Of a stretch of DNA of 64,000 nucleotides, positions 1 to 39,434 are shown piece after piece. The notes below the pieces were generated by a model. That model did not search any database. It saw only the letters and a list, made by a program, of their open reading frames with translations, and was not told the DNA's origin. Source of the stretch: an uncultured Chloroflexia bacterium (GTDB lineage: Bacteria > Chloroflexota > Limnocylindria > Limnocylindrales > CSP1-4); assembly GCA_963707395.1 (NCBI GenBank), contig CAVPPQ010000020.1, positions 70,021 to 134,020 of the forward strand, in the 5' to 3' direction. The stretch's first letter is position 1. Each line of letters starts with the position of its first letter. A program made the position numbers and the translations under genes.

Positions 1-514
1 CACCGGCAACTGGCACGAGTCGCTGAACATGGCAGCCGCCTGGGAGCTGCCGGTCGTCTTCGTGCTGGAGAACAACCACTGGGGCGTCTCCACGCGCATC
101 GAGGACATGGTCAAGGAGCCGGATTTCTCCAAGCGGGCGGCAGGCTACGGCATCCCCGGCGTGCGGGTGGACGGCTTCGACGTGCTGGCCGTGTACGCAG
201 CGGCCTCGGCGGCCGTGGCGCGGGCGCGAGCCGGCGGAGGCCCCACGCTGCTGGTCACAGAGACCTACCGCATGGACGGACACTACGCGGGCGAGCCGGA
301 GGTCTACCGCGACAAGGCGGAGGTCGCCGAGTGGCGCGCCAAGGAGCCCATCGCGCGCTTCCGGCACGACCTGCTCGAGAGCGGCACGGCCACGCAGGCG
401 GACCTGGACGGCATCGACGCCGAGGTCAAGGCGGACCTCGACGAGGGCATCGCCTTCGCGAGGGCCAGCTCTGAGCCTGACCCGGCCACGGCCCTCGACT
501 ACATCTACGCGTAA
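1..514 (+). CDS. TPP-dependent acetoin/pyruvate dehydrogenase E1 component alpha subunit; C-terminal part only, 5' end lies outside the window
   Basis: The translation (ELPVVFVLENNHWGVST...VRVDGFDVLAVY...RMDGH) matches the C-terminal region of 2-oxoacid dehydrogenase E1-alpha (AcoA/PdhA type). The frame runs from the window edge and stops at 512-514. Confidence 0.8.
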   Translation, partial: TGNWHESLNMAAAWELPVVFVLENNHWGVSTRIEDMVKEPDFSKRAAGYGIPGVRVDGFDVLAVYAAASAAVARARAGGGPTLLVTETYRMDGHYAGEPEVYRDKAEVAEWRAKEPIARFRHDLLESGTATQADLDGIDAEVKADLDEGIAFARASSEPDPATALDYIYA

Positions 515-530
515 GGCAGGAGCGACGACG

Positions 531-1622
531 ATGACGACCGAGGTTCGCGACTCCGTCTCGCTGGCCGGCAACGTGCCGGCCATGTCCCCCGACACCATCC
601 GCCAGGTCCCCGATGGCGTGCCCGCCAGGCTCCTGAGCTACCAGGAGGCCATCCGCGAAGCGCTGCGCGAGGAGATGCACCGCGACCCGGCGGTCTTCCT
701 CATGGGCGAGGACATCGCCAAGCACGGCGGTGCCTTCGGCGTGACCCGCACCCTCTTCGACGAGTTCGGCGCAGAGCGGGTCCGCAACACGCCCATCTCG
801 GAGAACACCATCGTCGGTGCCGCCACCGGTGCTGCGCTGGTGGGCATGCGCCCCGTGGCGGAGATCATGTTCGTCGACTTCAGCGGCCTGGCCATGGACC
901 AGATCGCCACGCAGGCCGCCAAGATCCGCTTCATGACCGGCGGCCAGTGCAGCGTGCCGTGGGTCCTGCGCATGCCGCAGGGCGGCGGCGCCGGCAAGTC
1001 CACGGCTGCCCAGCACAGCCAGAGCCTGGAGGTCTGGTTCGCCCACATCCCCGGCCTCAAGGTGGTGCTGCCCTCAACGCCCTACGACGCCAAGGGGCTC
1101 ATGACGGCGGCCATCCGGGACGACAACCCGGTCATCTTCCTGGAGCACAAGCTGCTCTACGCCTTCAAGGGCCTGGTGCCGGAGGCGGACTACGTGGTGC
1201 CACTCGGCCAGTGCGACGTGAAGCGCGAGGGCACGGATGTCACCGTCGTGGCCTCGGGCTACATGGTCTGGCACGCCATGGTCGCGGCGCAGGCGCTGGA
1301 GCCGGAGGGCATCAGCGTGGAGGTCGTGGATGTGCGCACGGTGTCGCCGCTGGACAAGGACACCATCGGCCGCTCGGTCCGCAAGACCGGCCGTGTCGTG
1401 GCCGTCGCTGAAGCCTGCGAGCAGTACGGCCCGGCCAACGAGTGGGCCATGGTGGCCGTCGAGCAGGCCTGGAGCCAGCTCCGCGGGCCGGTCATCCGGG
1501 TGGCCGGGCGCAACTCGCCCATCCCCTTCGCCAACAGCCTGGAGAATGGCGTCTGGCCCGGCACACAGGATGTCATCGACGCCATCCGGGCCTGCGTGTC
1601 CGGCGACGCCCCCGGCGCCTGA
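531..1622 (+). CDS. Acetoin/pyruvate dehydrogenase E1 component beta subunit (transketolase-like pyrimidine-binding fold)
   Basis: The 363-aa ORF (FLMGEDIAKHGGAFGVT...ENTIVGAATGAALVGMRPVAEIMFVDF) shows typical E1-beta motifs. An RBS-like GGAGCG lies upstream of the ATG at 531. It directly follows E1 alpha. Confidence 0.85.
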   Translation: MTTEVRDSVSLAGNVPAMSPDTIRQVPDGVPARLLSYQEAIREALREEMHRDPAVFLMGEDIAKHGGAFGVTRTLFDEFGAERVRNTPISENTIVGAATGAALVGMRPVAEIMFVDFSGLAMDQIATQAAKIRFMTGGQCSVPWVLRMPQGGGAGKSTAAQHSQSLEVWFAHIPGLKVVLPSTPYDAKGLMTAAIRDDNPVIFLEHKLLYAFKGLVPEADYVVPLGQCDVKREGTDVTVVASGYMVWHAMVAAQALEPEGISVEVVDVRTVSPLDKDTIGRSVRKTGRVVAVAEACEQYGPANEWAMVAVEQAWSQLRGPVIRVAGRNSPIPFANSLENGVWPGTQDVIDAIRACVSGDAPGA

Positions 1623-1676
1623 CCTGCGGGCAGCGTGCCCCGGGCGCCTGCCACCCCCGAGCGAAAGGAGCACACC

Positions 1677-1964
1677 ATGGCCACCGAGGTCTTCATCTCC
1701 AAGATGACCGACTTCATGGAGGAGGGCACGATCGTGAGCTGGCTGGTCGCCGAGGGCGACCGGGTCGAGGAGGGCCAGCCCATCGTGGAGCTGGAGACGG
1801 ACAAGGCCACCTCGGAGCTGGAGGCGCCCGCCAGCGGCTACATCGTGGGCATCCGGCCGGGCGTCGTGCCGGGCACGGTCCTGCCGGTCGGGGAGACCAT
1901 CGCCTACATCGTGGACAGCCCCGACGAGGCCGTTGTGCCCCTGCCACCGCTGTCAGCTGGCTGA
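1677..1964 (+). CDS. Stand-alone lipoyl-attachment domain protein (about 95 aa) with no acyltransferase catalytic domain
   Basis: It carries the lipoyl-lysine motif (IVELETDKATSELEAP) within the hallmark EGDRVEEGQPI stretch. A strong RBS (AAAGGAG) precedes the ATG at 1677. The frame stops at 1964, so no E2 catalytic domain follows. Confidence 0.75.
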   Translation: MATEVFISKMTDFMEEGTIVSWLVAEGDRVEEGQPIVELETDKATSELEAPASGYIVGIRPGVVPGTVLPVGETIAYIVDSPDEAVVPLPPLSAG

Positions 1965-1967
1965 GCC

Positions 1968-2780
1968 ATGAGCCTCACCGGACGGACCGCCGTCATCACG
2001 GGTGCCGCCAGCGGCATCGGACGAGGGATCGCGGAACGGCTCCTCGCTGAGGGCATGCCCGTGGCCCTCCTGGACATGGACCCGGGCATCTCGGACATCG
2101 CCGCTACCCTGACCAGCCCGGACCGACGCGCCATCGGCATCGCCACGGACGTCACGAGCAGCACCAGCGTGCGTGCCGCCTTCGAGCGCGCGGAGGGAGA
2201 GCTGGGCCCGCCCTGGCTGCTCGTCAACAGCGCCGGCGTGCTCTCCTACGGGGCCACCGTGGACATGCCGGAAAGCGATTGGGACCGCGTCGTGGATGTC
2301 GACCTCAAGGGCGTCTTCCTCTGCTCGCAAGCGGCGTTGCGCAGCATGCTGCCGCGCGGCGGCGGGCGCATCGTGAACATCTCGTCCATCGCGGGACGCG
2401 TTGCCCGGCCCACCCAGATCGCCTACTGCGCGGCCAAGGCAGGCGCCGATCACTTCACGCGCTGCCTCGCCGTCGAGGTCGCCAGCGCCGGTGTCACCGT
2501 CAATTCCGTGGCGCCCGGCATGACCCGCTCCGTGATGCTCGAACGGGTCATCGCACGCGGAGGCAGCGAGGAGGATCTCCTGGCGCTGATCCCGGACGGG
2601 CGCTTCGCCTTGCCCGAGGATCATGCCGCGCTCGTGGCCTGGCTGGCGAGCGATGAGGCCTCGCACGTCACCGGGCAGGTCATCGATGTGGACGGCGGCC
2701 AGTCGCTGTTCGCTCCCATCGTGCGGCGAACGGGACCGCTGCCGGCAGCGGCGACCAGCAAATCGTCCCGGGCGGGCTGA
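1968..2780 (+). CDS. SDR-family NAD(P)-dependent oxidoreductase
   Basis: It has the Rossmann motif TGAASGIGRGIA, the catalytic YxxxK (YCAAK) and an NSAG motif. Length is 270 aa. Confidence 0.85.
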   Translation: MSLTGRTAVITGAASGIGRGIAERLLAEGMPVALLDMDPGISDIAATLTSPDRRAIGIATDVTSSTSVRAAFERAEGELGPPWLLVNSAGVLSYGATVDMPESDWDRVVDVDLKGVFLCSQAALRSMLPRGGGRIVNISSIAGRVARPTQIAYCAAKAGADHFTRCLAVEVASAGVTVNSVAPGMTRSVMLERVIARGGSEEDLLALIPDGRFALPEDHAALVAWLASDEASHVTGQVIDVDGGQSLFAPIVRRTGPLPAAATSKSSRAG

Positions 2781-2817
2781 CGGACGCTCCGGGCAATCTG
2801 ATCAGGAGGAGGGAACG

Positions 2818-3597
2818 GTGACCGAGTCGACTGGTCGCCTGCAGGGCAAGCGAGCCTTCGTGACGGGGGCCGGCACCGGCATCGGACGCGCCGTGGCCGT
2901 GCGTTTCGCACAGGATGGGGCCAAGGTGGGGCTCATCGGCCGCCGGGTGGAGCCACTGGAAGAGACTGCCGCGCTCATCGCCGAGTTCGGTGGCACGGCC
3001 CTCGTGACGCCCTGCGACGTCTCGAAGGAGGACCAGGTCGAACGGGCCGTGGCAGCCATCAAGGAAGCCTTCGGCGGCATCGACACCGTCGTCGGCGTGG
3101 CCGGCATCGAGCTCATGGGCGTCGGGGATGACCGCATCGACCGGGTCGAGATGTCGATCTGGCAGCAGACCATCGACGTCAACCTGACGGGCATGTTCCT
3201 GACCTGCAAGCACGGCACGCGGGCCCTGCTCGAGTCGGGCGGCGGTTCCATCACCATCACCGGGTCGCCGTGCGGCCAATTGGGCTTCTGCAGCGACCAG
3301 GCCGCCTACAGCGCCAGCAAGTCCGGCACGCACGGCCTGGTGCGCGGCATGGCGGCCGACCTGGCCACGGAGAACATCCGCGTCAACTGCGTCATCCCGG
3401 GCTTCATCGCGACGCCGCTCACGACCCAGGTCTTCGAGGATCCAGCGTGGCTGGGATCGCTCGAGAAGATGATCCCCATGCACCGCGCCGGACAGCCGGA
3501 CGAGGTGGCCACCATGTACGCCTGGCTGGCCTCGGACGAGGCCTCCTATGTGACGGGCGCTTTCTTCACCGTGGATGGCGGCGAGACGGCGGTCTGA
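2818..3597 (+). CDS. SDR-family oxidoreductase (second paralog)
   Basis: A GTG start at 2818 follows an AGGAGGA RBS. It shows TGAGTGIGRAVA and YSASK motifs. The longer ORF that begins at 2623 overlaps SDR1 and is rejected as the real start. Confidence 0.8.
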   Translation: MTESTGRLQGKRAFVTGAGTGIGRAVAVRFAQDGAKVGLIGRRVEPLEETAALIAEFGGTALVTPCDVSKEDQVERAVAAIKEAFGGIDTVVGVAGIELMGVGDDRIDRVEMSIWQQTIDVNLTGMFLTCKHGTRALLESGGGSITITGSPCGQLGFCSDQAAYSASKSGTHGLVRGMAADLATENIRVNCVIPGFIATPLTTQVFEDPAWLGSLEKMIPMHRAGQPDEVATMYAWLASDEASYVTGAFFTVDGGETAV

Positions 3598-3751: not shown

Positions 3752-5287
3752 ATGACCGCGGACGCGGATCCGACAGTCCAGGCGCTGCGCCTCGAGGTGC
3801 GATCCTGCTGGAAGGAGTTCCCAGGCGTCCAGGCCCTGCGAGACGTCTCCACGGACGTGCGCCGCGGCGAGATCCACGCGCTCCTGGGCGAGAACGGCGC
3901 CGGCAAGTCCACGCTGGGCAAGGTCATCGGCGGCGTCTATCAGGCGGATGCCGGCGAGGTCCTGCTGGACGGCAACGTCCTGGGTCGCATCGATGAGCAC
4001 ACAGCCGCCCGCCTCGGGGTCGCCATCGTGCACCAGGAGGGCTCGCTGGTCCCACAGCTGTCCGTCGCGGAGAACGTCTTCGCAGGGCACGCGCCCAAGC
4101 TCTCGCTGGGACGCGTGGATCGCAAGGAATCGGCGCGCCGCACCCGGGCCCTGATGATGGACCTCGGGGTGGACATCGCTCCCGAAGCGCCGGTCTACTC
4201 GCTCTCCACCGCCCAGGCCCAGGTCGTCGAGATCGCCAAGGGCCTCTCGCACGAGCTGCGCCTGCTCATCCTGGATGAGCCGACGGCATCGCTGACCCTG
4301 ACCGAGTCGGCCCGCCTCTTCGAGATCCTGCGACGGCTTCGGGACTCGGGCGTTTCGATCATCTACATCAGCCACCGGCTGGCGGAGATCTTCCAGCTCT
4401 GCGACCGCGTCACGGTCCTCAAGGACGGCGCGGTGACAGGGACGCGAGATGTCGCGGCCACCACGCAGGACGAGCTCATCCGGCTGATGGTCGGTCGCGA
4501 CGTGCTCTTCCAGCGGGGTGACACGGTGCCGCCTGGTGAGGTCGTGCTGGAAGTCGAGCACCTCTCGTCCGCCCCGGTCGTGCAGGACGTGTCCTTCCAG
4601 GTCCGCGCCGGCGAGCTGGTCTGTCTCTCCGGGCTGGTGGGCTCAGGGCGCTCGGAGACCTGCCAGGCCATCTTCGGCGTGCACCGCCGCACTGGCGGGG
4701 TCGTCCGCCTCAACGGCAGGGACGTCGACTTCGGCGGGCCCTGGGACGCCATCGCGGCCGGCATCGGGATGATGCCGGAGGACCGCAAGGTGGCCGGCCT
4801 GTTCCTGGGGCACTCGGTCGCCCAGAACATCGCGGCGACGGTGCTCGGCAAGGTCTCCCGGAACGGCGTCCTCTCGCGACAGGCCATGGAGGAGATGGCC
4901 AAGCGCTATATCAGCGACCTGAACATCTCCACACCATCGACGCAGCAGCTCCTGGAGAAGCTTTCCGGCGGCAACCAGCAGAAGGTGCTGCTGGCCAAAT
5001 GGCTGGCGCCGGAGCCACGCCTGCTCATCGTCGACGAGCCCACGCGCGGCGTGGACGTGGGCGCACGGGCGGAGATCTACCGGATCCTGGGGGATCTGAA
5101 GAAGCGGGGGCTGGCCATCGTGGTCGTGTCCTCTGACCTGCCTGAGGTGCTGACCCTGGCCGATCGCATCGTCGTCATGGCGTACGGTCGCACGGTCGGC
5201 GAGCTCGATGGCGCCACTGCAACGGAGGAAGACGTGCTTCGCCTGGCTACCAAGATCACGGCCCAAACGACGGCGGTGGCGGCATGA
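3752..5287 (+). CDS. Sugar ABC transporter ATP-binding protein with duplicated nucleotide-binding domains (CUT2 / RbsA-MglA-like)
   Basis: It has two Walker A sites (GENGAGKST and the second-half GLVGSGRSE) and two LSGG signature motifs. Length is 511 aa. Confidence 0.9.
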   Translation: MTADADPTVQALRLEVRSCWKEFPGVQALRDVSTDVRRGEIHALLGENGAGKSTLGKVIGGVYQADAGEVLLDGNVLGRIDEHTAARLGVAIVHQEGSLVPQLSVAENVFAGHAPKLSLGRVDRKESARRTRALMMDLGVDIAPEAPVYSLSTAQAQVVEIAKGLSHELRLLILDEPTASLTLTESARLFEILRRLRDSGVSIIYISHRLAEIFQLCDRVTVLKDGAVTGTRDVAATTQDELIRLMVGRDVLFQRGDTVPPGEVVLEVEHLSSAPVVQDVSFQVRAGELVCLSGLVGSGRSETCQAIFGVHRRTGGVVRLNGRDVDFGGPWDAIAAGIGMMPEDRKVAGLFLGHSVAQNIAATVLGKVSRNGVLSRQAMEEMAKRYISDLNISTPSTQQLLEKLSGGNQQKVLLAKWLAPEPRLLIVDEPTRGVDVGARAEIYRILGDLKKRGLAIVVVSSDLPEVLTLADRIVVMAYGRTVGELDGATATEEDVLRLATKITAQTTAVAA

Positions 5288-6312
5288 CGCAGAGCGCCGC
5301 CGAATCCTCCGGAGCCGTGCCCAGCACGCCGCACGCCCCGGCGCAGAAGCAGGACAGCCTGCTCTCGCGCATCCTCGTCACGCTCGCCGAGTCGCGCGAG
5401 CTGACCCTCTTCGCGCTCATCGTCATCCTCGTCGTGGCGATGACGGTCCTCTACCCCAACAACTTCCCCACCGAGTCCAACATCTCGGCCATCCTCCTCA
5501 ACGCCGCCCAGAACGGGATCCTCGTGACGGGCATGATGCTGCTCTTCATCGCGGGCTTCTTCGACCTCTCGGTGGGCTCCATCCTGGCCCTCGCCGGCGT
5601 GTGGGCCGGGGTCGTCGTGGCCCAGTGGGGCTACCCGGCGCCGGTCGGCATCCTGGTCGGCTGCACGGTGGGCATCCTGGCCGGCGCCTTCAACGGCTTC
5701 CTCGTCACGAAGGTCGGGATCAACGCCCTCATCACGACGCTTGGCACCCTGGCCATCTTCCGAGGCCTGACCTACGTCACCGCCGGGACCGGCGTCACGC
5801 CCATCGGTGACGAGTTCAAGACCTATGGCCAGACCGACTTCCTGGGTCTCCAGTCGCCCTTCTGGGTCATGCTGGCCATCGTCCTCGTCATGGCCTGGGC
5901 GGTCTCGCGAACGGCCTTCTTCCGGCAGTACTACTTCATCGGCGGCAATTCCCGGGCCGCCCAATTGTCCGGCATCCGGGTGGCTCGCTTGACCTTCACC
6001 GCCTTCGTCCTCATGGGCTTTCTGGCAGGCGTCGCCGGCGTCCTGGGGGCCGCCCGTCTCAACAGCGCGGTCGTCTCGGCTGGCATCGGCGTGGAACTCT
6101 CCGTCATCACGGCCGCCGTCCTGGGCGGTGCCAGCCTGCGCGGTGGCGAGGGCTCCATCATCGGCGGTGTCCTGGGCGTGCTCTTCATCGCCCTGGTCTC
6201 CAACGCCATGATCATCAACGGCATCGGCGTCTTCTGGCAGCCCATCGTCACGGGCACGGTGCTCTTGCTGGCCGTGTCACTCGACCGCTTCCGCAGATCC
6301 CGCCGGGCCTGA
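5284..6312 (+). CDS. Sugar ABC transporter permease (RbsC-like)
   Basis: It forms an ATGA overlap with the upstream ATPase. It is multi-pass hydrophobic at 342 aa and carries a typical RbsC-family EAA-like region. Confidence 0.85.
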   Translation: MTQSAAESSGAVPSTPHAPAQKQDSLLSRILVTLAESRELTLFALIVILVVAMTVLYPNNFPTESNISAILLNAAQNGILVTGMMLLFIAGFFDLSVGSILALAGVWAGVVVAQWGYPAPVGILVGCTVGILAGAFNGFLVTKVGINALITTLGTLAIFRGLTYVTAGTGVTPIGDEFKTYGQTDFLGLQSPFWVMLAIVLVMAWAVSRTAFFRQYYFIGGNSRAAQLSGIRVARLTFTAFVLMGFLAGVAGVLGAARLNSAVVSAGIGVELSVITAAVLGGASLRGGEGSIIGGVLGVLFIALVSNAMIINGIGVFWQPIVTGTVLLLAVSLDRFRRSRRA

Positions 6313-6438
6313 GCGGCCCGGCGGACCACCGCGACGCGAACCCGCAGGGGAAGGAGGAGCCATCGAGCAGGGTCACGAGCCACCGCCGACGATCGGCACC
6401 AACGGAGCACGGAACACACGTGTGGAGGGATATCCCCT

Positions 6439-7446
6439 GTGAAGCGTTTTAGTCGCCTGGCGCTCCTCGTGAGCCTCGCTGTGGTCGCCACCGGCCTGCC
6501 CGCTCAGGCGCAGGAATCGGTCTTCGGTCCCGAGGACGCGACCGAGGTCTACTACTGGGTCTCCAACAAGGCCAACCTGCCGCTCTTCGTGCAGTACGAC
6601 TACGTGGGCATGGAGAAGATCGCCAACGAGCTTGGCGTGCAGGTCCGCGTGGCCGGCCCGACCGACTTCGACCTGCCCGGCTTCATCGCCGCCGTCGACC
6701 AGGTCTGCGCGCAGAAGCCCGCCGGCGTCTCCGTCGTGGGCGGCTGGGACCCGTCGCTGACCGAGTCGGTCAAGAAGTGCATCGAGGCCGGCGTGCCGAC
6801 CGTCGTGGACGACGGCGACCTGCCTGACTCCGGGCGCCTCTCCTACATCGGCACGGACTGGTCCGCCATCGGCGAGGCTCAGGCCAAGGCCATGATGGCG
6901 GCCCTGCCGGACGGCGGCAAGCTGGCCACCATGTCCATCATCAACGCCAACAACATGCGCGAAGGCGTCAAGGGCTTCGTTGACTACATCGAAGCCAACG
7001 GCGAGGGCAAGTACGAGCTCGTCGCCAATGAGGACGACAACGGTGACTCGGCCAAGGCGGCCGAGGTGACCGCGGCCGTGCTGGCAGCACACCCGGACAT
7101 CGCCGGCATCGCGGGCTTCGACTCCGAGTCCGGCGCGGGCATCGCGCTGGCCCTTCAGGAGGCCGGCAAGCAGCCGGGTGAGGTCGTCGTCACGGCCATG
7201 GAGCAGACGCCCGACTTCTTCAACACGGTCAAGGACGGCTGGGTCGACTCGATCATCGTCCAGAACCGCGAGCTCTTCATCTACTACGCGGTCAAGATGC
7301 TCTACGACTACAACCACAACGGCCTCAAGACGTCCGGCCTGACCGGCGCTGAGGGCGGCGTACCGATCCCGCCGACCGTCGACACGGGCGTGCTGGTCGT
7401 CAACTCGGACAACGTGGACAAGGTGCTGGCCACCTTCGAACAGTAG
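6439..7446 (+). CDS. Sugar ABC transporter periplasmic substrate-binding protein (RbsB/type-I PBP fold)
   Basis: A GTG start follows a GGAGGG RBS. The signal peptide is MKRFSRLALLVSLAVVATGLPAQA. Length is 335 aa. Confidence 0.85.
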   Translation: MKRFSRLALLVSLAVVATGLPAQAQESVFGPEDATEVYYWVSNKANLPLFVQYDYVGMEKIANELGVQVRVAGPTDFDLPGFIAAVDQVCAQKPAGVSVVGGWDPSLTESVKKCIEAGVPTVVDDGDLPDSGRLSYIGTDWSAIGEAQAKAMMAALPDGGKLATMSIINANNMREGVKGFVDYIEANGEGKYELVANEDDNGDSAKAAEVTAAVLAAHPDIAGIAGFDSESGAGIALALQEAGKQPGEVVVTAMEQTPDFFNTVKDGWVDSIIVQNRELFIYYAVKMLYDYNHNGLKTSGLTGAEGGVPIPPTVDTGVLVVNSDNVDKVLATFEQ

Positions 7447-7537
7447 GGTCCTCCTCCTCTTGAGAACGGCCCCCGGCCTGACGCCGGGGGCCGTTCTCTC
7501 TTCGCTGCGACGCACATCCCGAGAGAGGCACATCGAC

Positions 7538-8329
7538 ATGACGACACGGATCCGCTACCTGGGCGTGGCTGCCTACGAGATCGTGGGCCCGCGGCACCGC
7601 ATCCTCATGGATCCCTTCCTGACCGGCAGCCTGACGGCACCCTGCGGGCCGGATGACCTGGAGACCCCGGACGTCATCCTCGTGAGCCATCCGCCCGTCG
7701 ATCACCTCGGAGACGCGGCCGAGATCGCCATCCGCACCGGGGCGCCCATCGTCTGCGGCAACGACAGCCGTCTGCTGCTCCTGGAGCGCGGTGTCCCGCC
7801 CGAGCAGATCCGTCACACCATCTGGGGCATCAAGATCCTCATCGGCGAGGACCTCCTCATCCGGCCCGTGGAGTGCCGTCACTGGGCGGGCGCCCAGCTC
7901 AAGGACGGCCGCTTCGTACCGGGCTTCCCGCTGGCCTTCATCGTGGAGACCGAGCCGGGCGTGCGCATCTACCACTTCGGGGATTCCGCGGTCTTCGGGG
8001 ACATGCGCTTCATCGGCCAGCTGCACCAGCCCACCGTGGGCCTGCTCGGCTGCAGCCAGCCGTACGAGCTGCTGCCGAAGGTCTACACCGGTGCGGGCCA
8101 GGTCGTCACGGGCGAGATGTCACCCCTGGAGGCCGCCATGGCAGCGGAGCTGCTTGGCGTCAAGTTCGCCGTCGCGAGCCATTACTACGACCCCGATCAC
8201 GCTGACGTCCAGGAGTTCCTGGCCGAGGTGCCCAGGCAGGACACGACGGGCAAGCGGGTGCCCCTGGCCATGCGGCCGAATGAGGTCCTCGTCATCGACG
8301 GCGACGACTGGCGGATCGAGCAGGCCTAG
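7538..8329 (+). CDS. MBL-fold metallo-hydrolase (possibly a lactonase or phosphodiesterase)
   Basis: The motifs HPPVDHLGD, the CGND stretch and a His-rich C-terminal half (HFGDSAVFGD, ASHYYD) fit the metallo-beta-lactamase fold. I chose the ATG at 7538 (MTTRIRYLGV) over the longer 7460 ORF. Confidence 0.65.
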   Translation: MTTRIRYLGVAAYEIVGPRHRILMDPFLTGSLTAPCGPDDLETPDVILVSHPPVDHLGDAAEIAIRTGAPIVCGNDSRLLLLERGVPPEQIRHTIWGIKILIGEDLLIRPVECRHWAGAQLKDGRFVPGFPLAFIVETEPGVRIYHFGDSAVFGDMRFIGQLHQPTVGLLGCSQPYELLPKVYTGAGQVVTGEMSPLEAAMAAELLGVKFAVASHYYDPDHADVQEFLAEVPRQDTTGKRVPLAMRPNEVLVIDGDDWRIEQA

Positions 8330-9054
8330 ACCGGCTCCTCCTCGGGCAGCGCCCGCAGGATCTCCTGGTTGGCGCGATCGATGGCCACACCCATGGCTGC
8401 GCGGGCGGCCGGGTCATCACCTGCCGCGATGGCGTCGATGACGGCCGCGGCGTCCGCGGCCTGAACGTCCATGGCTTCCCTGGAGAGCGGCACCCGGGCC
8501 ACCCAGAACTGCAGCAGCGAGCGGATCGTGGCTGCCGCACCGGCCAGGACGTCGTTGTCGGCCACCTCCGTGACGGCGCGCAGGAAGGCCGCCTGGGCAG
8601 CGGCGAACCGCACCGGGTCGCGGTGGGCGGCCTTCATGGCCGCGTGGAGGGCGCGCAGGTCGGCCATGTCGCGCTCATCCCGGCGCACGGCCGCCAGGCC
8701 GGCCAGGATGACGTCGAGGTGTCGGCGCGCCTCGAGCAGGTCGGGCACGTGGCCGGCGCCCAGGACGAGCCCCCACTCGATCGACTCGGGCAGGATGTCC
8801 GCGTCCACGCGCTTGACGTAGGTGCCGTCCCCGAGGCGCACCTCGAGCAGGCCCAGCAGCGTCAACGACTTGAGCGCCTCCCGGACGACGGAGCGGCCGA
8901 CCCCCAGGACCTCCGCCAGCTTGCGCTCTGGAGGCAGCCTGTCGCCTGGCTGGACGCGCCCGGAGAGCAGGTAGTCCAGCAGCTGCCGACTGATGGAGAT
9001 GGTCGTCCCTTCGCGCCGCGACAGATCGAGCGGCTGCAGCGATCCACCCGTCAT
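8326..9054 (-). CDS. GntR-family transcriptional regulator, FadR (FCD) subfamily
   Basis: It has an N-terminal winged HTH (RLPPERKLAEVLGVGRSVVREAL) and a C-terminal FCD-like helical domain. Length is 242 aa. Confidence 0.85.
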   Translation of the reverse strand: MTGGSLQPLDLSRREGTTISISRQLLDYLLSGRVQPGDRLPPERKLAEVLGVGRSVVREALKSLTLLGLLEVRLGDGTYVKRVDADILPESIEWGLVLGAGHVPDLLEARRHLDVILAGLAAVRRDERDMADLRALHAAMKAAHRDPVRFAAAQAAFLRAVTEVADNDVLAGAAATIRSLLQFWVARVPLSREAMDVQAADAAAVIDAIAAGDDPAARAAMGVAIDRANQEILRALPEEEPV

Positions 9055-9827
9055 GGCTCGCCCGCGGCCGGGTGAGCAGCCGTGCCCGCGTCGGCTCGCC
9101 GACGTTCCTGCTCGTCAAGCGTCACCTGGAGCCGGTCGGCAGCGCCTTCCATGTGGCCCACCATGGCCCGCCGCGCCGCGGCTGCATCGCCAGCCTCGAT
9201 GGCCTCGAAGACAGCTTCGTGCTCGGCCCACGTGGCCGGCCGAGTCCCCGGCGCATAGGCCACGCGCTGGATCCAGACCTGCATGAGACTGCGAATGGAC
9301 TTCATGATCTGGAAGAGGGACTGATTGCCCGTCGACCGTGCGATCCCCAGGTGGAAGTCCACGTCGGCGCGGACGAACTCGTCGTTGTCCGTCGTCCGCT
9401 GCATGATCTCCACGCAGCGCCGCAGCTCCGTCAGGGCGGCTTCGTCACGGCGCTCCGCAGCCAGTCCGGCCAGCAGGATCTCCAGCTCCGCGCGCGCCTC
9501 CACGAGGTCCTGGGAACGCTTGGCCCCCAGCAGGAGCCCCCACTCGATGGCCAGCGGCAGCAGCGGGGAGTCCGTGCGCTTGAGGTACGTGCCGTCACCC
9601 TGGCGGGCGTCCACGAGGCCCAGCACGGTCAGCGACTTGATGGCCTGGCGGACGTGGGAGCGGCCGACGCCGAGCGTCTCCGCCAGCTGCCGCTCGGATG
9701 GCAGCCGCTCACCTGGCTTGACCTGCCCGGAGATGAGGTAGTCGAGCAGCCGACGGGTGACCTCCGAGGAGATGGGTTCCGGGTTCCGTTGGACGACGGG
9801 CCCCAGGTCGGGCAGCATGGTGGCCAT
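9051..9827 (-). CDS. GntR-family transcriptional regulator, FadR subfamily (tandem paralog)
   Basis: The HTH reads RLPSERQLAETLGVGRSHVRQAI. I placed the start at MATMLPDL (9827), which gives the same spacing to the HTH as in the neighbouring paralog. Its stop overlaps the downstream GntR start. Confidence 0.8.
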   Translation of the reverse strand: MATMLPDLGPVVQRNPEPISSEVTRRLLDYLISGQVKPGERLPSERQLAETLGVGRSHVRQAIKSLTVLGLVDARQGDGTYLKRTDSPLLPLAIEWGLLLGAKRSQDLVEARAELEILLAGLAAERRDEAALTELRRCVEIMQRTTDNDEFVRADVDFHLGIARSTGNQSLFQIMKSIRSLMQVWIQRVAYAPGTRPATWAEHEAVFEAIEAGDAAAARRAMVGHMEGAADRLQVTLDEQERRRADAGTAAHPAAGEP

Positions 9828-9944
9828 TGTAAGTGCCTCGATCGGCTGCCTCGAACGGCCCCCTGGGCGACGGACGGCCACGGCCGGGCTGTCATCGGGC
9901 GGACGGACGCGGGTCACCATGTCAGCCCTCCCCCTCCCTGATGC

Positions 9945-12329
9945 TCAACGACCGGAAACGGCCTCTACCACCGCGCGGATGCGAGCCACGCGGTCGGCAC
10001 GCTCGCGGACGAAGCGCTCGATGCCGGCCAGGATCTGCTCGCGACCGAGGCCGGCCTCGTCCATGACCTCGTCGACGCTGCCGCCGGTGCGCCAGCGGTC
10101 GTCGCGGTCGGCGCACAGGGTGTAGTCCTCGGCCACCGGGCCCAGGATCCAGTCGGACATGAGGCGCCGGGCACCGTTCGTGACGGCCATGGCGTCCCAG
10201 CGGTCGGCAGCCGACATGGTGGCCTCCCGGTAGGCGGCGTCCTGGCGGCGGAAGAGCTGCGGGCTGATGGCGGCCACGATCTTGACGTTGAGCCCCGCCC
10301 GGTCCAGCTCGGGCAGGATGGCAACGACATTGGCCGTGGGCACCGTGCCGCGCACGAAGACCGTGCCCATGCGCGGCTGCCCGTCGCGGAAGGGGCGCAT
10401 GACGTAGGCGCCGCGCGCGGCCTCGAAGTGCGATGGCATGCCGAGGGCTTCGCGGTCGGGGATGGCCACCGGCGGGCGCGTCAGGTGGAGAGCCACGATG
10501 GGCGCGTCCGTGGCCAGCGCAGCGCCCAGGACCACGGGCACCTCGTTGTGCTCCCAGGGATGAAGGTCGATGACCGCGCCTTCCGGGAAGAGCTGCGTGA
10601 CGCCGGTCTCGAAGATGCCGAAGTGCGTCCGCGAGTCCTCCGCGGTCTCCGGTCCGGAGTGGCCGGCGATCCAGATGATCTTGCCCAGCTTGAGCTCGCT
10701 GTCCTGGGCCATCTGGGAGAAGAGGCGCAGCGGCCCGTACTTCAGGTAGGAGAAGGAGGCGTACGTGGAGCAGGCGCCCCAGAACCCGTCGAAGGCTTCG
10801 CGCGCATCCGGGGCGAAGCTGACCGAGGCCATGCCGGCCAGGATGCCGGCGTTGGCCATCTCCGTGATCTCCTGGGGCAGGACCGACCCGCGCGGGTTGG
10901 CGTCACGCTCGTACCAACCCCAGCCGGGCAGCTCGCCGAAGTCCTTCGCGAAGCCGGCCACGTTGGTGGATTCGGCGAGGTCCGCGGAGCAGGCGATGAT
11001 CAGCGGGCGGCCGTGGCGCTGGCGCGCATAGGCGTTGACCCAGCTGCCCCAGGTGCCCAGCGCGGCGCGGTTCGGTTGCATGTCCCCCGGCGCCTTGTAG
11101 AGCTCCGCGGGGTAGGAGCGGAAGTCCGTGATGACCGGGTCGTTGAAGATGGCGGCCGTGTCGCCACCCAAGGTGCAGCCGGGGATGGCGTCCGGAACGG
11201 AGGCAGCCAGGTCCGCGAGGCGGTCGGACAGCCAGCGCACCGTGGCCTCGTCCCGGGTGAGCACGGAGAGCGCCAGCTGCAGGTTGGCAGCCGCCTGCGC
11301 CTGACGCGCCGCCGGATCCTCGGGTGCGGTCTGGCCGGCACCCTCGTAGGTCACGCCGTAGCGGGCCTGGAAGCCCTCGCGAGCGGTCCAGAAGGCCGGG
11401 CTGTTCAGGGCATGCGGGATGCCGTGGGAGGCGGCGTCCTGCTTGCCGTAGCCGCGACCCTTCTGCGTGCGGAACCAGGCCATGGTGGGCAGGCTCGCCG
11501 GGTTGTCACCCCGCGCTGCCTCCAGGGCCGTGCGCAGGACCGGCTCCCAGGCCATGCCCTCCGGCGTGCCCAGCGTGCGCCAGCCGTGCGAGGCGAACCA
11601 GTCCTGTGGCGTGCCGTAGATGACGGAGGATGCGGCTCGCGGGTCGATGCCGAAGTCGTTCCAGTCGACGAGGAAGACGAGGTTGCCGAGGCCCAGACCC
11701 CAGGCGGAGTTGAGCGTCTCGTGCGTGACGCCCGGGGTGAGGCCGCCCTCCCCTTCCACGACGAAGACCTTGACCTCCGGGCAACCGGCCATCTTGAGTG
11801 CCAGCGCTTCCCCGGCGGCGACGGGCATGCCGTGGCCGGACGGGCCCGTGTTGGCCTTGAAGAGCAGGGTCTTGCCGGCCATCTCGGCGTGCCCGGGCAG
11901 GCCACCGCGGTGGCGGAAGGTGAGCAGGTCCTCCCAGGTGAGCGCCCAGCGACCTTCGTCCGGGAAGGCGAAGCGCTCGTCGCCGTCGAGCGCGTGGCGG
12001 GCACGCATGCCCTCGTTCAGGGTGGCGAGGACGGCATAGATGAGCGGCACCGTGTGGCCGGCCGAGAGGACGAAGCGGTCGGAGAAGGTGCGCCAGGGCC
12101 GCAGCACGTCCCAGCGCATGGCGCCGCAGAGCAAGGTACCCAGGACGAAGTGGACCTTGGAACGTGATCCTCCGGGGTGGCCCGACTGGCGCTCGTTGAG
12201 GGTCAGGTCGATGAGCTCGTCGACGACGTCCTTGACGATCTCGTACCGTGCCATCTCGCTGTCATCGACCGGGAATGACCCGAGCGGCAGCGTGCGTCCC
12301 GACGCATCCATGCCTGATCCTCCATCCAC
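9945..12329 (-). CDS. Transketolase-family TPP-dependent enzyme, unusually long (794 aa), fused N- and C-modules with a C-terminal extension
   Basis: It has a GHPGGSRSK TPP motif, a GDGE-type motif (VVEGEGGL), and pyrimidine-binding and C-terminal regions. It runs about 100 aa longer than canonical transketolase. Confidence 0.8.
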   Translation of the reverse strand: MDGGSGMDASGRTLPLGSFPVDDSEMARYEIVKDVVDELIDLTLNERQSGHPGGSRSKVHFVLGTLLCGAMRWDVLRPWRTFSDRFVLSAGHTVPLIYAVLATLNEGMRARHALDGDERFAFPDEGRWALTWEDLLTFRHRGGLPGHAEMAGKTLLFKANTGPSGHGMPVAAGEALALKMAGCPEVKVFVVEGEGGLTPGVTHETLNSAWGLGLGNLVFLVDWNDFGIDPRAASSVIYGTPQDWFASHGWRTLGTPEGMAWEPVLRTALEAARGDNPASLPTMAWFRTQKGRGYGKQDAASHGIPHALNSPAFWTAREGFQARYGVTYEGAGQTAPEDPAARQAQAAANLQLALSVLTRDEATVRWLSDRLADLAASVPDAIPGCTLGGDTAAIFNDPVITDFRSYPAELYKAPGDMQPNRAALGTWGSWVNAYARQRHGRPLIIACSADLAESTNVAGFAKDFGELPGWGWYERDANPRGSVLPQEITEMANAGILAGMASVSFAPDAREAFDGFWGACSTYASFSYLKYGPLRLFSQMAQDSELKLGKIIWIAGHSGPETAEDSRTHFGIFETGVTQLFPEGAVIDLHPWEHNEVPVVLGAALATDAPIVALHLTRPPVAIPDREALGMPSHFEAARGAYVMRPFRDGQPRMGTVFVRGTVPTANVVAILPELDRAGLNVKIVAAISPQLFRRQDAAYREATMSAADRWDAMAVTNGARRLMSDWILGPVAEDYTLCADRDDRWRTGGSVDEVMDEAGLGREQILAGIERFVRERADRVARIRAVVEAVSGR

Positions 12330-12461
12330 CCAGGCCGGCCCGAACTGCCGCCGGGGCTGGCGGCACGCGATGGCATCTGGCCTGAGGAGGGTCAGTCTAC
12401 TCCGATGGTTGACCGGTCATCCACTGACCGCGACGGGGCCCGTGCCAGGCTGGCGGCCCTG

Positions 12462-13436: not shown

Positions 13437-13448
13437 CGTCGCGGTCTC

Positions 13449-16423: not shown

Positions 16424-16443
16424 CTCTCCCTCTTGCGTGGATC

Positions 16444-17106
16444 TCAGGTGGTCAGGACCTTGCGAATCTCCGCCAGGACCAGCTGCGGGCTGGCCAGGAC
16501 GGGGATCGCCAGGGGCTCGTTGGCGAGTGCTGCCTGGACGCGGGCCATCGTGGCCTGGGCGAGGACGATGACGTCCGCCTCCGGCGCCGCCTCGCGCAGG
16601 GCGGTCATCACCAACCGGTCGTGAAGTGCGGCGTCCCCGGCGAGGAGCGCGGGCAGCGCTCCGTCCACCATGCGCAGGCGCACATCGACCATCCGGCCGC
16701 TGCGCGCCGCCGTGGCCTCCAGGAGCTCTCGGGAGGGCTCGAGGGTCGTGGGCGCCGTGGCCACGACCGTGATGCGGCCGCCGATGCGCACGGCCTCCTC
16801 GGCCATGGGGTCGTCGATGGCGAAGAGGGGGATGGCGGACCGATCTCGGACCCGCGCCACGGCCCGCGACACCGACGAGCAGGTCACCAGCAGCGCCGCC
16901 GCGCCGATGGCTTGAGCTACGCCGACGTGATCGAGGAGGTGCGCGTCATCCTCGGGGTCGTCCTGGCCACGCTGCTTGATGCGCTCCAGCATGGGCTCGT
17001 CCAGGACGTGCAGCACGCGCACGCCGGGCAGCTCGTCCGCGCACCACGCCGCGAACGCCCCGATCAGGCCGGGGATCGTGTGGAGCAGTACGAGCGTGGG
17101 GGTCAT
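16444..17106 (-). CDS. Asp/Glu/hydantoin racemase superfamily protein
   Basis: The translation from MTPTLVLLHTIPGL to VVATAPTT reads like the arylmalonate decarboxylase / Asp-Glu racemase fold. I set the start at 17106, preceded by AAGGACAG. It lies 20 bp upstream of transketolase pair 2. Confidence 0.55.
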   Translation of the reverse strand: MTPTLVLLHTIPGLIGAFAAWCADELPGVRVLHVLDEPMLERIKQRGQDDPEDDAHLLDHVGVAQAIGAAALLVTCSSVSRAVARVRDRSAIPLFAIDDPMAEEAVRIGGRITVVATAPTTLEPSRELLEATAARSGRMVDVRLRMVDGALPALLAGDAALHDRLVMTALREAAPEADVIVLAQATMARVQAALANEPLAIPVLASPQLVLAEIRKVLTT

Positions 17107-19648: not shown

Positions 19649-19721
19649 ATGATAGCGGCGCGGGGTGTGGCAGCGGTCGACGTGCGCGCAAGGGCGCGTG
19701 GTCTGCCGCTACGCTGTCGCG

Positions 19722-23470: not shown

Positions 23471-23471
23471 C

Positions 23472-35796: not shown

Positions 35797-39434
<3,638 letters not shown>

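What the first reader, a model, noticed from the sequence alone, without database searches (positions are those of the whole stretch)
1..3597. E1 alpha/beta TPP dehydrogenase with only a stand-alone lipoyl carrier and two SDRs, no E2 catalytic domain or E3
The operon encodes acetoin/pyruvate-dehydrogenase-type E1 alpha and E1 beta. It then encodes a 95-aa protein that is just a lipoyl-attachment domain (ETDKA motif), followed by two SDR oxidoreductases. A CUT2 sugar ABC importer and an MBL-fold hydrolase follow. A normal complex needs an E2 acyltransferase core and an E3. Here the acyl group would be delivered to a free lipoyl carrier. Together with the downstream sugar transporter, this looks like an unconventional TPP-dependent C-C cleavage module of a sugar-derived diketone or acyloin, not a central-metabolism PDH.
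Basis: partly seen in the sequence, partly recalled or inferred. Interest (0 to 1): 0.55.

Follow-up and report, generated by a model that had tools for sequence, protein, structure and literature searches.

The report
E1 dehydrogenase with free lipoyl carrier
A thiamine-dependent E1 dehydrogenase sits beside a conserved 95-residue free-standing lipoyl protein instead of a normal E2 core, and related bacteria encode the missing E2 catalytic domain as a separate small gene that this genome lacks at the matching position.

Summary
The window encodes E1 alpha (cut by the window start), E1 beta, a 95-aa lipoyl-only protein, two SDRs, a CUT2 ABC importer and an MBL-fold hydrolase. No E2 catalytic domain or E3 was found in the 64 kb. 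Syntenic contigs show none in the 10 kb upstream either.

The lipoyl-only gene is not a remnant. It belongs to a clade of more than 100 sequence clusters of 88-95 aa. In the loci checked it always lies directly after E1 beta, the ETDKA lysine motif is kept, and dN/dS is 0.09-0.32. The nearest outgroup has ordinary full-length E2.

Sister lineages encode a free-standing E2 catalytic domain of 200-250 aa. It lies either in the divergent transketolase operon or directly after a different lipoyl-only gene. This window has that operon in the same order, but only 133 nt where the catalytic-domain gene should be.

My best reading is a dissociated system with a split E2 and no E1/E3-binding domain, set in a sugar-catabolic island rich in thiamine enzymes. 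E1 loads the free lipoyl carrier. Off-loading and re-oxidation depend on unlinked genes. The substrate is unknown. I rate it a new variant of a known kind.

The parts
2..514 (+). E1 alpha subunit, C-terminal 170 aa; the N-terminus lies before the window start
   Evidence: PF00676, E=1.8e-48. It contains the ENN end of the ThDP motif. It also contains the DGH histidine that aligns with human E1 alpha His263, seen in the full-length orthologue L163.
531..1622 (+). E1 beta subunit (363 aa)
   Evidence: Transket_pyr plus Transketolase_C. NCBIfam PRK09212 subfamily scores 366.6 bits against a cut-off of 321. It scores 294 bits to G. stearothermophilus PDH E1 beta (1W85_B), and the residue aligned with His128 is conserved.
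1677..1964 (+). Free-standing lipoyl carrier protein (95 aa), with no E1/E3-binding domain and no catalytic domain
   Evidence: PF00364, 61 bits. AAGGAG Shine-Dalgarno 6 nt before the ATG. The lipoyl lysine and 26 other columns are invariant in 30 family members. dN/dS 0.09-0.32. AlphaFold pLDDT 93, with E2 lipoyl domains as best PDB matches.
1968..2780 (+). SDR oxidoreductase 1; its start lies 3 nt after the lipoyl stop
   Evidence: adh_short_C2, E=2e-58. An SDR1 orthologue at 50% identity or more is the commonest gene directly after the lipoyl-only gene in related loci.
2821..3597 (+). SDR oxidoreductase 2 (start placed at the GTG at 2821; the longest ORF begins at 2623)
   Evidence: adh_short_C2, E=9e-62. 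The orthologue is 257 aa in L163.
3752..7446 (+). CUT2-type ABC importer: ATPase 3752-5287, permease 5284-6312, binding protein 6439-7446
   Evidence: Pfam ABC_tran x2, BPD_transp_2 and Peripla_BP_4. The binding protein has only distant PDB relatives, so no ligand can be inferred.
7460..8329 (+). MBL-fold metal hydrolase of the UPF0173 type
   Evidence: Lactamase_B_2. NCBIfam PRK00685 scores 105 bits against a cut-off of 144. PDB relatives are UPF0173 hydrolases. Present in L081, L082 and L088 but absent from L163.
8326..9920 (-). Two tandem GntR/FCD regulators (8326-9054 and 9051-9920)
   Evidence: They are 51-63% identical to the GntR/FCD regulator (Pfam GntR plus FCD) of L166 and L167. Two tandem GntR/FCD genes occupy the same position in the syntenic contigs L081 and L163.
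9945..12329 (-). Divergent 794-aa transketolase-like ThDP protein
   Evidence: Only weak Transketolase_N (66 bits) and Transket_pyr hits. It is 71-73% identical to the 791-aa gene that follows the free-standing E2 catalytic domain in L166 and L167.
12330..12461 (.). Intergenic gap (133 nt from the transketolase stop to the next start) at the position where sister lineages carry the free-standing E2 catalytic-domain gene
   Evidence: In L167 the order is TK_C327, then Cat(237 aa), then the 791-aa TK-like gene. The window has the two flanking orthologues (78% and 71% identical) with only this gap and no remnant of the catalytic domain.
12462..14537 (-). Split transketolase pair 1: N-terminal part 13449-14537 (362 aa) and C-terminal part 12462-13436 (324 aa)
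   Evidence: Pfam. It is 69-78% identical to the pair that directly precedes the catalytic-domain gene in L164 and L167. The same type of pair sits directly before E1 alpha in L039, a relative with a full E2.
14580..17181 (-). Split transketolase pair 2 (15521-16423 and 14580-15524) plus an Asp/Glu-racemase-family gene (16444-17181)
   Evidence: Pfam. The order and identities (74-80% for the transketolase pair, 47-55% for the racemase-family gene) match the divergent operon of L166 and L167.

Best explanation
This is a dissociated member of the 2-oxo-acid/acetoin dehydrogenase family in which the E2 scaffold has been taken apart.

Proposed mechanism:
1. The alpha2beta2-type E1 (2-514 and 531-1622) cleaves a ThDP-activated substrate. 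The substrate is a 2-oxo acid or an alpha-hydroxyketone derived from an imported plant-type sugar.
2. E1 reductively acylates the lipoyl-lysine of a free, soluble 95-aa lipoyl carrier protein (1677-1964). Normally this lysine sits on a domain tethered to an E2 core.
3. In sister lineages the acyl group is then passed to CoA by a separate free-standing E2 catalytic domain of 200-250 aa. No component has an E1/E3-binding domain, so no E2-scaffolded complex of the classical kind is expected.
4. In this lineage the catalytic-domain gene is missing from its syntenic slot. Off-loading must therefore rely on an unlinked catalytic domain or a housekeeping E2 acting in trans, or on hydrolysis of the thioester.
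5. Re-oxidation of the dihydrolipoyl carrier relies on an unlinked E3, as it does in all relatives.

What is shown: the gene content, the conservation and selection on the carrier, the split architecture in relatives, and the specific absence here.
What is inferred: acyl loading of the carrier by E1, trans off-loading, E3 sharing, and the sugar origin of the substrate.
For: The carrier is a real, selected gene.
- It belongs to one clade of 88-95-aa proteins with more than 100 clusters at 90% identity.
- In about 27 loci it sits 27-78 nt after E1 beta.
- The lipoyl lysine is invariant and dN/dS is 0.09-0.32.
- It has a confident lipoyl-domain fold.

E1 looks competent to load it.
- The residues aligned with the two histidines I recall (from memory, not checked in a paper here) as acting in reductive acylation of lipoamide are conserved: G. 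stearothermophilus E1 beta His128 and human E1 alpha His263.

The ancestral state was ordinary.
- Relatives at 72-78% E1 beta identity carry full E2 of 393-468 aa with lipoyl domain, binding domain and DHRxxDG.

The split E2 is recurrent.
- About 70 clusters of 200-250-aa proteins contain only PF00198.
- They lie in the divergent transketolase operon beside E1ab plus lipoyl-only in L086/87, L164 and L166, and next to E1 alpha in L167/168, where the locus ends before the lipoyl gene.
- They also lie directly after a different 85-aa lipoyl-only gene in L169 and L170, with an overlapping ATGA stop/start.

The absence here is specific.
- The window has the orthologous operon but only 133 nt at the catalytic-domain slot, and no E2 catalytic domain or E3 anywhere in 64 kb.

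Published precedents for using a lipoyl domain and a catalytic domain on separate polypeptides.
- Actinobacterial OdhA with AceF (PMC10415282).
- A transketolase working with a lipoyl/acyltransferase protein: QncN/L/M and SclQ1-4 (PMC6335953).
Against: - No biochemistry exists for any member of this clade, and nothing here shows that E1 acylates this carrier.
- On the long contigs of this lineage no catalytic-domain-only gene was seen. None of the catalytic-domain-only clusters lists a longest contig of 354,744, 275,435 or 186,903 bases, which are the contigs carrying the closest carriers. The trans partner is therefore hypothetical, and the rest of the source genome could not be examined.
- The catalytic-domain-only clade is not specially related to the E2 of the nearest relatives with full E2 (33-41% identity). 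It is therefore not a simple fission product, and its pairing with this carrier rests on gene neighbourhood only.
- Without a binding domain, catalysis would depend on free diffusion, which is expected to be slow.
Confidence: 0.5

Rival explanations
1. This is an ordinary acetoin or pyruvate dehydrogenase operon whose full E2 and E3 lie just outside the window, so the small lipoyl protein is only an extra.
For: The window start cuts E1 alpha, so the upstream region of this exact sequence is unseen. Relatives at about 77% E1 beta identity do have a full E2 in the operon.
Against: Syntenic contigs with 82-97% identical carriers show 10 kb upstream with no E2 or E3. In about 27 loci the gene after E1 beta is the short carrier and the next gene is something else. 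There is no E2 or E3 in the 62 kb downstream.
Confidence: 0.03
2. The lipoyl-only ORF is a decaying remnant of a truncated E2 and has no function, and E1 is inactive or works with a housekeeping complex only.
For: The outgroup has full E2 at the corresponding place, so a truncation did happen at some point in history.
Against: dN/dS is 0.09-0.32 across lineages whose synonymous sites are half saturated. Twenty-seven columns are invariant, including the lipoyl lysine. The length is constant at 88-95 aa across more than 100 clusters. It has its own Shine-Dalgarno sequence and a 3-nt junction to the next gene. E1 beta is 80-98% conserved within the clade.
Confidence: 0.04
3. No CoA transfer is needed in this lineage. 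The acyl-dihydrolipoyl thioester on the free carrier is hydrolysed, for example by the co-transcribed MBL-fold hydrolase acting like a glyoxalase-II thioesterase, or it lactonises on its own if the acyl group is polyhydroxylated. The products are a free acid or lactone plus the reduced carrier.
For: The catalytic-domain gene is missing exactly here. An MBL-fold hydrolase is present in the same gene string in the window, L081, L082 and L088. SDR1 orthologues follow the carrier only in loci without a nearby catalytic-domain gene.
Against: The MBL protein is of the UPF0173 type, not glyoxalase II. It is absent from the syntenic contig L163. It sits after the ABC importer and could equally be a sugar lactonase. 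Hydrolysis would waste the thioester energy.
Confidence: 0.15
4. The free carrier is a shared acceptor for two-carbon units. It serves E1ab and also the neighbouring transketolase-type enzymes (the split 362/324-aa pair and the 794-aa protein). These would act as oxidative transketolases like QncN/QncL and make glycolyl-lipoyl from ketoses. This is not exclusive of the main explanation.
For: In sister lineages the free-standing catalytic domain is co-transcribed with the split 364/327-aa transketolase and the 791-aa TK-like gene, not with E1ab. This mimics the published QncN/QncL and SclQ2-Q4 arrangement minus the lipoyl domain (PMC6335953). The same transketolase type sits directly before E1 alpha in L039, a relative with full E2.
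Against: The best 120 homologues of the 324-aa subunit are all plain two-domain proteins, with no lipoyl or acyltransferase fusions. The family is 71-97% conserved across several phyla, which suits an ordinary sugar-phosphate transketolase. No sequence comparison with QncN/L was possible.
Confidence: 0.2

Closest known systems
Acetoin dehydrogenase enzyme system (AcoA/AcoB E1, AcoC E2, AcoL E3)
   Same: It has a heterotetramer-type E1 alpha/beta. The carrier's best NCBIfam match is the N-terminal lipoyl part of the AcoC model PRK14875 (69 bits). SDR genes are adjacent, as butanediol dehydrogenase is in aco operons. The role is catabolic and non-central.
   Different: AcoC carries its acyltransferase part on the same chain as the lipoyl domain, whereas here the carrier is 95 aa with nothing attached. 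There is no AcoL. The substrate is not known to be acetoin.
Gram-positive-type PDH and BCKDH complexes (for example G. stearothermophilus E1 alpha2beta2 with E2 core, PDB 1W85)
   Same: E1 beta scores 294 bits to 1W85_B, and the full-length E1 alpha orthologue scores 147 bits to 1W85_A and 213 bits to human PDH E1 alpha. Residues aligned with the catalytic histidines are conserved. The nearest outgroup has an E2 with lipoyl domain, binding domain and catalytic domain.
   Different: There is no binding domain and no core-forming domain next to the carrier. Full-length E1 alpha orthologues score below the PDH equivalog cut-off (325 against 394 bits). The gene context is sugar catabolism.
Actinobacterial hybrid PDH/ODH (OdhA with AceF; PMC10415282)
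   Same: It is a precedent for the lipoyl domain and the acyltransferase domain that act in one reaction sitting on different polypeptides.
   Different: There the catalytic domain is fused to E1o and the lipoyl domains belong to a full E2p that still has a binding domain. Here both parts are free-standing small proteins.
QncN/QncL/QncM and SclQ1-4 glycolyl-unit systems in natural-product biosynthesis (PMC6335953, PMC7570522)
   Same: A split transketolase-type ThDP enzyme works with a lipoyl domain and an E2-type acyltransferase. The gene order of transketolase N-terminal part, C-terminal part, then acyltransferase resembles the sister-lineage operons.
   Different: Those systems are biosynthetic and deliver to an ACP, and their lipoyl domain is fused to the acyltransferase. 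No ACP or NRPS is present here, and homology to Qnc proteins was not tested.
Glycine cleavage H protein
   Same: It is a small free lipoyl protein that shuttles between separate, non-scaffolded enzymes.
   Different: It belongs to a different family. The GCV_H Pfam hit is only 19.5 bits, below the cut-off. Its partners are also different.

Membership tests
Lipoyl domain (PF00364, E2-type) | Sequence match above the curated threshold | tested here: met
   61.4 bits against a cut-off of 22.1.
Lipoyl domain (PF00364, E2-type) | Lysine in a DKA hairpin motif rather than the biotinyl MKM motif | tested here: met
   LETDKA at 1791. E40, T41, D42 and K43 are invariant in 30 relatives.
Lipoyl domain (PF00364, E2-type) | Flattened beta-barrel fold | tested here: met
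   pLDDT 93.3 with seven strands. Best PDB matches are E2 lipoyl domains, for example 3crk_C at rmsd 1.3 A.
Lipoyl domain (PF00364, E2-type) | The protein is actually lipoylated | not testable with these tools
   This needs mass spectrometry or an anti-lipoate blot. No lipoate ligase or synthase gene is in the window.
Heterotetramer-type E1 of 2-oxo-acid/acetoin dehydrogenases | E1_dh alpha subunit plus a beta subunit with Transket_pyr and Transketolase_C domains, encoded in adjacent genes | tested here: met
   The two genes are 16 nt apart.
Heterotetramer-type E1 of 2-oxo-acid/acetoin dehydrogenases | ThDP motif and the histidines that act on lipoamide | tested here: met
   The ENN end of the motif lies in the window. 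The L163 orthologue has GDA-x-NN in place of GDG, a small deviation. The residues aligned with human alpha His263 and G. stearothermophilus beta His128 are present. The role of these residues is recalled from memory.
Pyruvate dehydrogenase E1 proper (NCBIfam equivalogs TIGR03181, TIGR03182, NF008854) | Score above the equivalog cut-off | tested here: not met
   Full-length alpha orthologue: 325.5 against 393.85 bits. Beta: 367.7 against 454 bits. Only the broader subfamily model PRK09212 is passed.
Classical 2-oxo-acid dehydrogenase multienzyme complex | An E2 chain with lipoyl domain, E1/E3-binding domain and core-forming catalytic domain | tested here: not met
   The carrier ends 15 residues after the lipoyl fold. 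No PF00198 is found in 64 kb. None is found upstream in syntenic contigs.
Classical 2-oxo-acid dehydrogenase multienzyme complex | A dedicated or shared E3 (dihydrolipoyl dehydrogenase) | tested here: inconclusive
   No E3 is present in the window or in flanks of relatives. E3 is often unlinked, and the rest of the genome is unavailable.
Split E2 architecture seen here in relatives (lipoyl-only gene plus catalytic-domain-only gene) | A free-standing PF00198 protein of 200-250 aa in the same gene neighbourhood | tested here: not met
   It is present in L086/87, L164, L166-L170. It is absent from the window, where the syntenic slot 12330-12461 is empty.
D-apiose catabolic clusters (Carter et al. 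2018, recalled from memory) | Orthologues of the named pathway enzymes, for example D-apionate lactonase ApnL | tested here: inconclusive
   ORF 17711-19648 hits the ApnL model at 268 bits against a cut-off of 750. The binding protein 28033-29016 matches PDB 5IBQ/4RY0 at E=1e-99. No PdxA-type, DUF1537 or RuBisCO-like genes were found in the window.

The most novel reading that the evidence does not exclude
A previously undescribed organisation of lipoate-dependent catabolism may exist in soil and sediment bacteria. Their labels are mostly Chloroflexota-like metagenome-assembled genomes. In this reading, a free lipoyl carrier protein acts as a diffusible acyl and electron shuttle. It collects two-carbon or other acyl units from several ThDP enzymes (E1ab and transketolase-like proteins) during breakdown of branched or rare plant sugars such as apiose. 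Off-loading is done by a free-standing acyltransferase or, in this lineage, without CoA at all.
Probability: 0.25. Interest if true: 0.75.

Novelty: new variant of a known kind. Interest (0 to 1): 0.55.

Why it matters
The textbook picture of 2-oxo-acid and acetoin dehydrogenases is an E2 core that tethers lipoyl arms and binds E1 and E3. Here a large environmental clade keeps a well-conserved E1 but has reduced E2 to a 95-aa free carrier. Related lineages carry the acyltransferase as another free small protein, and none has a binding domain.

If these parts work together, substrate channelling by a scaffold is dispensable for a whole class of catabolic ThDP/lipoate systems. The pieces would then be modular: one carrier or one acyltransferase could serve several E1-type enzymes.

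The finding also points to unknown steps in the breakdown of plant-derived sugars. It gives a small, easily expressed set of proteins with which acyl loading can be tested directly by mass spectrometry.

Tried and rejected
- An exact-sequence look-up of SDR1 found no record.
- The Carter et al. 2018 apiose paper is not held. Statements about it, and about the ligand in PDB 5IBQ, therefore rest on memory. The one paper citing 5IBQ did not name the ligand.
- Literature searches for stand-alone lipoyl proteins, or for E2 lacking lipoyl domains, gave nothing relevant beyond glycine-cleavage H, LarG and OdhA.
- I searched homologues of the 324-aa transketolase subunit for QncL-like fusions to lipoyl or acyltransferase domains. 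None appeared among the best 120, so the Qnc analogy stays an analogy.
- I tested whether loss of the C-terminal aromatic residue of E1 beta tracks loss of the binding domain. That residue is Phe324 in G. stearothermophilus and, as I recall, contacts the binding domain. None of about 27 lipoyl-only loci end in Tyr, Trp or Phe, against about 22 of 34 loci with full E2. However, a subgroup with full E2 ends in VMK, so the trait is not required and the sequences are not independent. I kept this only as a weak hint.
- I tested whether the catalytic-domain-only clade is a fission product of the neighbouring E2 type. It is not closer to it than to other E2s.
- My first E2 motif regex missed L039 (DHRSLDG) and was corrected.
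- A GC3 filter for gene calling failed on mid-GC loci and was replaced.
- The first SBP gave no informative ligand match.
- At 50% clustering the whole carrier clade collapses into one representative, so that search added little.

Full report
**1. What is in the sequence**

The window has about 70% G+C. The + strand from base 2 carries a tight gene string:
- E1 alpha, C-terminal 170 aa only (2-514, PF00676, E=1.8e-48).
- E1 beta (531-1622).
- A lipoyl-only protein.
- SDR1 (1968-2780) and SDR2 (start placed at 2821; ends 3597).
- A CUT2 ABC importer (3752-7446).
- An MBL-fold hydrolase (7460-8329).

The lipoyl gene starts at the ATG at 1677. This start has an AAGGAG Shine-Dalgarno sequence 6 nt upstream, and the gene ends 3 nt before the SDR1 start. 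The product is 95 aa: a lipoyl domain with LETDKA plus a 15-residue Pro-rich tail. An AlphaFold model built on 30 relatives has pLDDT 93.3.

**2. Are E2 and E3 really absent?**

- No DHRxxDG or E3 disulfide motif occurs in any frame of the 64 kb.
- HMMs built from 37 E2 catalytic domains and 3 E3 sequences from related loci score nothing better than E=2.7.
- Pfam scans of the candidate coding ORFs of 130 aa or more across the window show no E2, E3 or lipoate-attachment enzyme.
- The window start cuts E1 alpha, so I looked at syntenic contigs. L081, L082 and L163 have carriers 82-97% identical, E1 beta up to 98% identical, and the same downstream order as far as the importer and the regulators; L163 lacks the MBL hydrolase.
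- In the 10 kb upstream they carry an MhpD-like hydratase directly before E1 alpha. Further out are two IolO-like TIM barrels, a glyoxylate/hydroxypyruvate-reductase-like 2-hydroxyacid dehydrogenase, SDRs, a shikimate-dehydrogenase-like gene, RhaM and bactofilin. They carry no E2 and no E3.

**3. Is the small lipoyl gene functional?**

- A search of 5.8 billion proteins found more than 100 clusters of 88-95-aa proteins that are 65-96% identical to it.
- In an alignment of 30 members, 27 columns are invariant, including E40, T41, D42 and K43.
- Pairwise dN/dS is 0.09-0.32, while synonymous sites differ by 16-56%.
- In 75 metagenome loci plus the genome loci there is a sharp divide. Every lipoyl match at 66% identity or more to the window protein that could be read to its stop is a short ORF, except L156, whose N-terminus runs off its contig and which reads on into a full E2. 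Where E1 beta is visible, that short ORF lies 27-78 nt after it.
- Almost all matches at 65% or less are the first domain of a full E2 of 393-468 aa. These have one or two E1/E3-binding domains and DHRxxDG.
- E1 beta is 80-98% identical within the short-carrier clade and 72-78% identical to the group with full E2.

A truncation of E2 happened once, or a few times since L006 looks independent. The product then persisted under purifying selection through a wide radiation. Most source labels are Chloroflexota-type metagenome-assembled genomes from soil, wetland and sediment.

**4. The missing half exists in sister lineages**

In L086/87, L164 and L166 the operon of MhpD-like hydratase, E1 alpha, E1 beta and carrier faces a divergent operon. 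L167/168 show the same divergent operon next to E1 alpha, but those loci end before the carrier gene. The order in the divergent operon is:
- Asp/Glu-racemase-family gene
- TIM barrel
- transketolase N-terminal part (292 aa) and C-terminal part (328 aa)
- two aminotransferases
- transketolase N-terminal part (364 aa) and C-terminal part (327 aa)
- a protein of 227-237 aa that contains only PF00198 and has an intact DHRVxDG motif
- a 791-aa transketolase-like protein
- TIM barrel
- GntR regulator

This catalytic-domain-only protein defines its own clade of about 70 clusters of 200-250 aa. It is at most 46% identical to any full-length E2. Several of its clusters list the same longest-contig length as a carrier cluster, for example 291,323, 80,520, 39,570, 46,032 and 33,291 bases.

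In L169 and L170 the same catalytic-domain clade (60-65% identical) sits directly after a different 85-aa lipoyl-only gene, which is only 34-39% identical to the window carrier. That gene follows a different E1ab (E1 beta 58% identical), and L169 has an overlapping ATGA stop/start. The cluster also contains a RuBisCO-like protein.

A split E2 made of a free carrier and a free acyltransferase, with no binding domain, is thus a recurrent architecture. The catalytic-only clade is not a simple fission product of the neighbouring E2 type, since identity is 33-41%, no closer than to other E2s.

**5. What is special in this window**

The window carries the orthologous divergent operon in the same order:
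- racemase-family gene 16444-17181
- split transketolase 15521-16423 and 14580-15524
- split transketolase 13449-14537 and 12462-13436
- the 794-aa TK-like gene 9945-12329
- GntR regulators

Identities to L166 and L167 are 69-80% for the transketolase genes and 47-63% for the racemase-family gene and the regulators. Between the transketolase stop (12462) and the TK-like start (12329) there are only 133 nt, with no trace of the catalytic domain. The syntenic contigs L081, L082 and L163 also lack it within 10 kb. None of the catalytic-only clusters lists a longest contig matching their long contigs. In this lineage the dedicated acyltransferase is therefore either far away or lost.

SDR1 orthologues follow the carrier only in loci without a nearby catalytic-domain gene. 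That pattern is suggestive, but it comes from few independent lineages.

**6. Context and substrate**

Bases 1-29,000 form a carbohydrate island. It contains:
- E1ab and three further transketolase-type enzymes: two split pairs and one fused 648-aa protein at 21524-23470, plus the 794-aa TK-like protein.
- A 645-aa homologue of D-apionate lactonase (17711-19648). It is 56% identical to a protein Pfam labels Apionate_lact in L165, and it scores 268 bits to NCBIfam ApnL against a cut-off of 750.
- A glycerol-kinase-type FGGY kinase (19665-21206).
- A SorC/DeoR-type regulator (23472-24515).
- A second CUT2 importer. Its binding protein (28033-29016) matches PDB 5IBQ/4RY0 at E=1e-99. From memory, these are the Rhizobium etli binding protein solved with D-apiose and D-ribose, but I could not confirm the ligand here.

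L163 has an apiosidase-family gene beside the TK-like gene. The island is therefore probably aimed at plant cell-wall sugars of the apiose type. None of the named apiose-pathway enzymes passes an orthologue threshold, so this stays a lead.

For E1 itself the evidence points two ways:
- The adjacent SDRs and the many ketose-cleaving enzymes fit an acyloin substrate.
- The MhpD-like hydratase just before E1 alpha and the glyoxylate/hydroxypyruvate-reductase-like dehydrogenase in relatives fit a 2-oxo acid.

E1 alpha orthologues fall below the PDH equivalog cut-off, at 325 against 394 bits. Residues aligned with the two histidines that I recall acting in reductive acylation of lipoamide are conserved.

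In other sister loci the carrier is followed by MttB, corrinoid and URO-D-type methyltransferase genes. The E1ab-carrier module is thus reused in different pathways.

**7. Mechanism proposed**

E1ab generates a ThDP-bound carbanion from its substrate and reductively acylates the free lipoyl carrier. This is inferred from family chemistry and conserved residues. In sister lineages a free acyltransferase then makes acyl-CoA, which is inferred from gene neighbourhood.

Here off-loading needs one of three things: an unlinked acyltransferase or housekeeping E2 in trans, hydrolysis of the thioester, or lactonisation of the acyl group. An unlinked E3 re-oxidises the carrier, as must also be true for the relatives with full E2, which have no linked E3. 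Because nothing carries a binding domain, the parts would work as soluble partners, as in the glycine cleavage system.

Published precedents for parts of this picture:
- OdhA using AceF lipoyl domains (PMC10415282).
- QncN/QncL/QncM and SclQ1-4, where a split transketolase feeds a lipoyl/acyltransferase protein (PMC6335953, PMC7570522).

**8. Verdict**

This is not a new kind of chemistry. It is an undescribed variant of a very well studied enzyme family, it is widespread in environmental genomes, and this window holds its most reduced form. My confidence in the overall model is about 0.5. The weakest steps are off-loading in this lineage and the identity of the substrate.

Noticed in passing
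window 17711-29016: A second sugar cluster lies here. It holds a D-apionate-lactonase homologue (268 bits against a cut-off of 750), a GlpK-type kinase, a fused 648-aa transketolase, a SorC/DeoR regulator and a DUF2291 plus CUT2 importer. The importer's binding protein matches PDB 5IBQ/4RY0 at E=1e-99. From memory that is an apiose/ribose-binding protein, but the ligand was not confirmed here.
   Followed up: partly
window 9945-12329 (-): This 794-aa transketolase-like protein has only weak Pfam matches (Transketolase_N 66 bits). It is 71-73% conserved and always sits just after the free-standing E2 catalytic domain in L166-L168. Its function is unknown.
   Followed up: partly
L084/L085 10329-12535; L086/L087 10489-12625; L164 10440-11621; L165 4353-5820: In sister loci the E1ab-carrier module is followed or flanked by MttB-family methyltransferase, corrinoid-binding protein and URO-D/MtaA-like genes, plus class III and class IV aminotransferases. 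This suggests a link to demethylation of a methylated amine or sugar.
   Followed up: no
L169 and L170, about 3755-12891: A different E1ab with an 85-aa lipoyl-only gene and an adjacent catalytic-domain-only gene lies in a cluster with a RuBisCO-like protein, an FGGY kinase, two D-serine-dehydratase-like genes, a class II aldolase and a cyclase. This is a second, independent split-E2 system.
   Followed up: partly
window 1590-1622 and E1 beta C-termini in related loci: E1 beta of all lipoyl-only loci lacks the C-terminal aromatic residue. They end in VVAG, VMGR, APGA and similar, whereas about two thirds of relatives with full E2 end in VM-x-Y/W. A subgroup with full E2 ends in VMK, so the link to loss of the binding domain is only suggestive.
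   Followed up: partly
L003-L005, L007, L039 (between E1 beta and E2): Relatives with full E2 insert an IolO-like TIM-barrel gene between E1 beta and E2. It scores 230 bits to 5-keto-L-gluconate epimerase against a cut-off of 300. In L004 and L005 a URO-D/MtaA-like gene is inserted there as well.
   Followed up: no
window 35793-39470 (-): A 1225-aa pyruvate:ferredoxin oxidoreductase is followed by a dihydroorotate-dehydrogenase-like gene (34768-35796). The organism therefore has a lipoate-independent route for pyruvate oxidation.
   Followed up: no
window 47425-50190 (-) and 57130-60510 (+): A GH36 alpha-galactosidase (921 aa) and a third CUT2-type ABC importer are present, which adds to the plant-sugar theme of the region.
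   Followed up: no
window 17261-17659 (+): A small cyclophilin-like protein (PF04126) sits between the racemase-family gene and the lactonase homologue. Its role is unknown.
   Followed up: no
L081, L082, L163, L166, L168: Several long-read metagenome contigs show genes split by apparent frameshifts: E1 beta in L082, L163 and L166, and SDR and ABC genes in L081 and L082. Gene lengths from these contigs should not be trusted individually.
   Followed up: no
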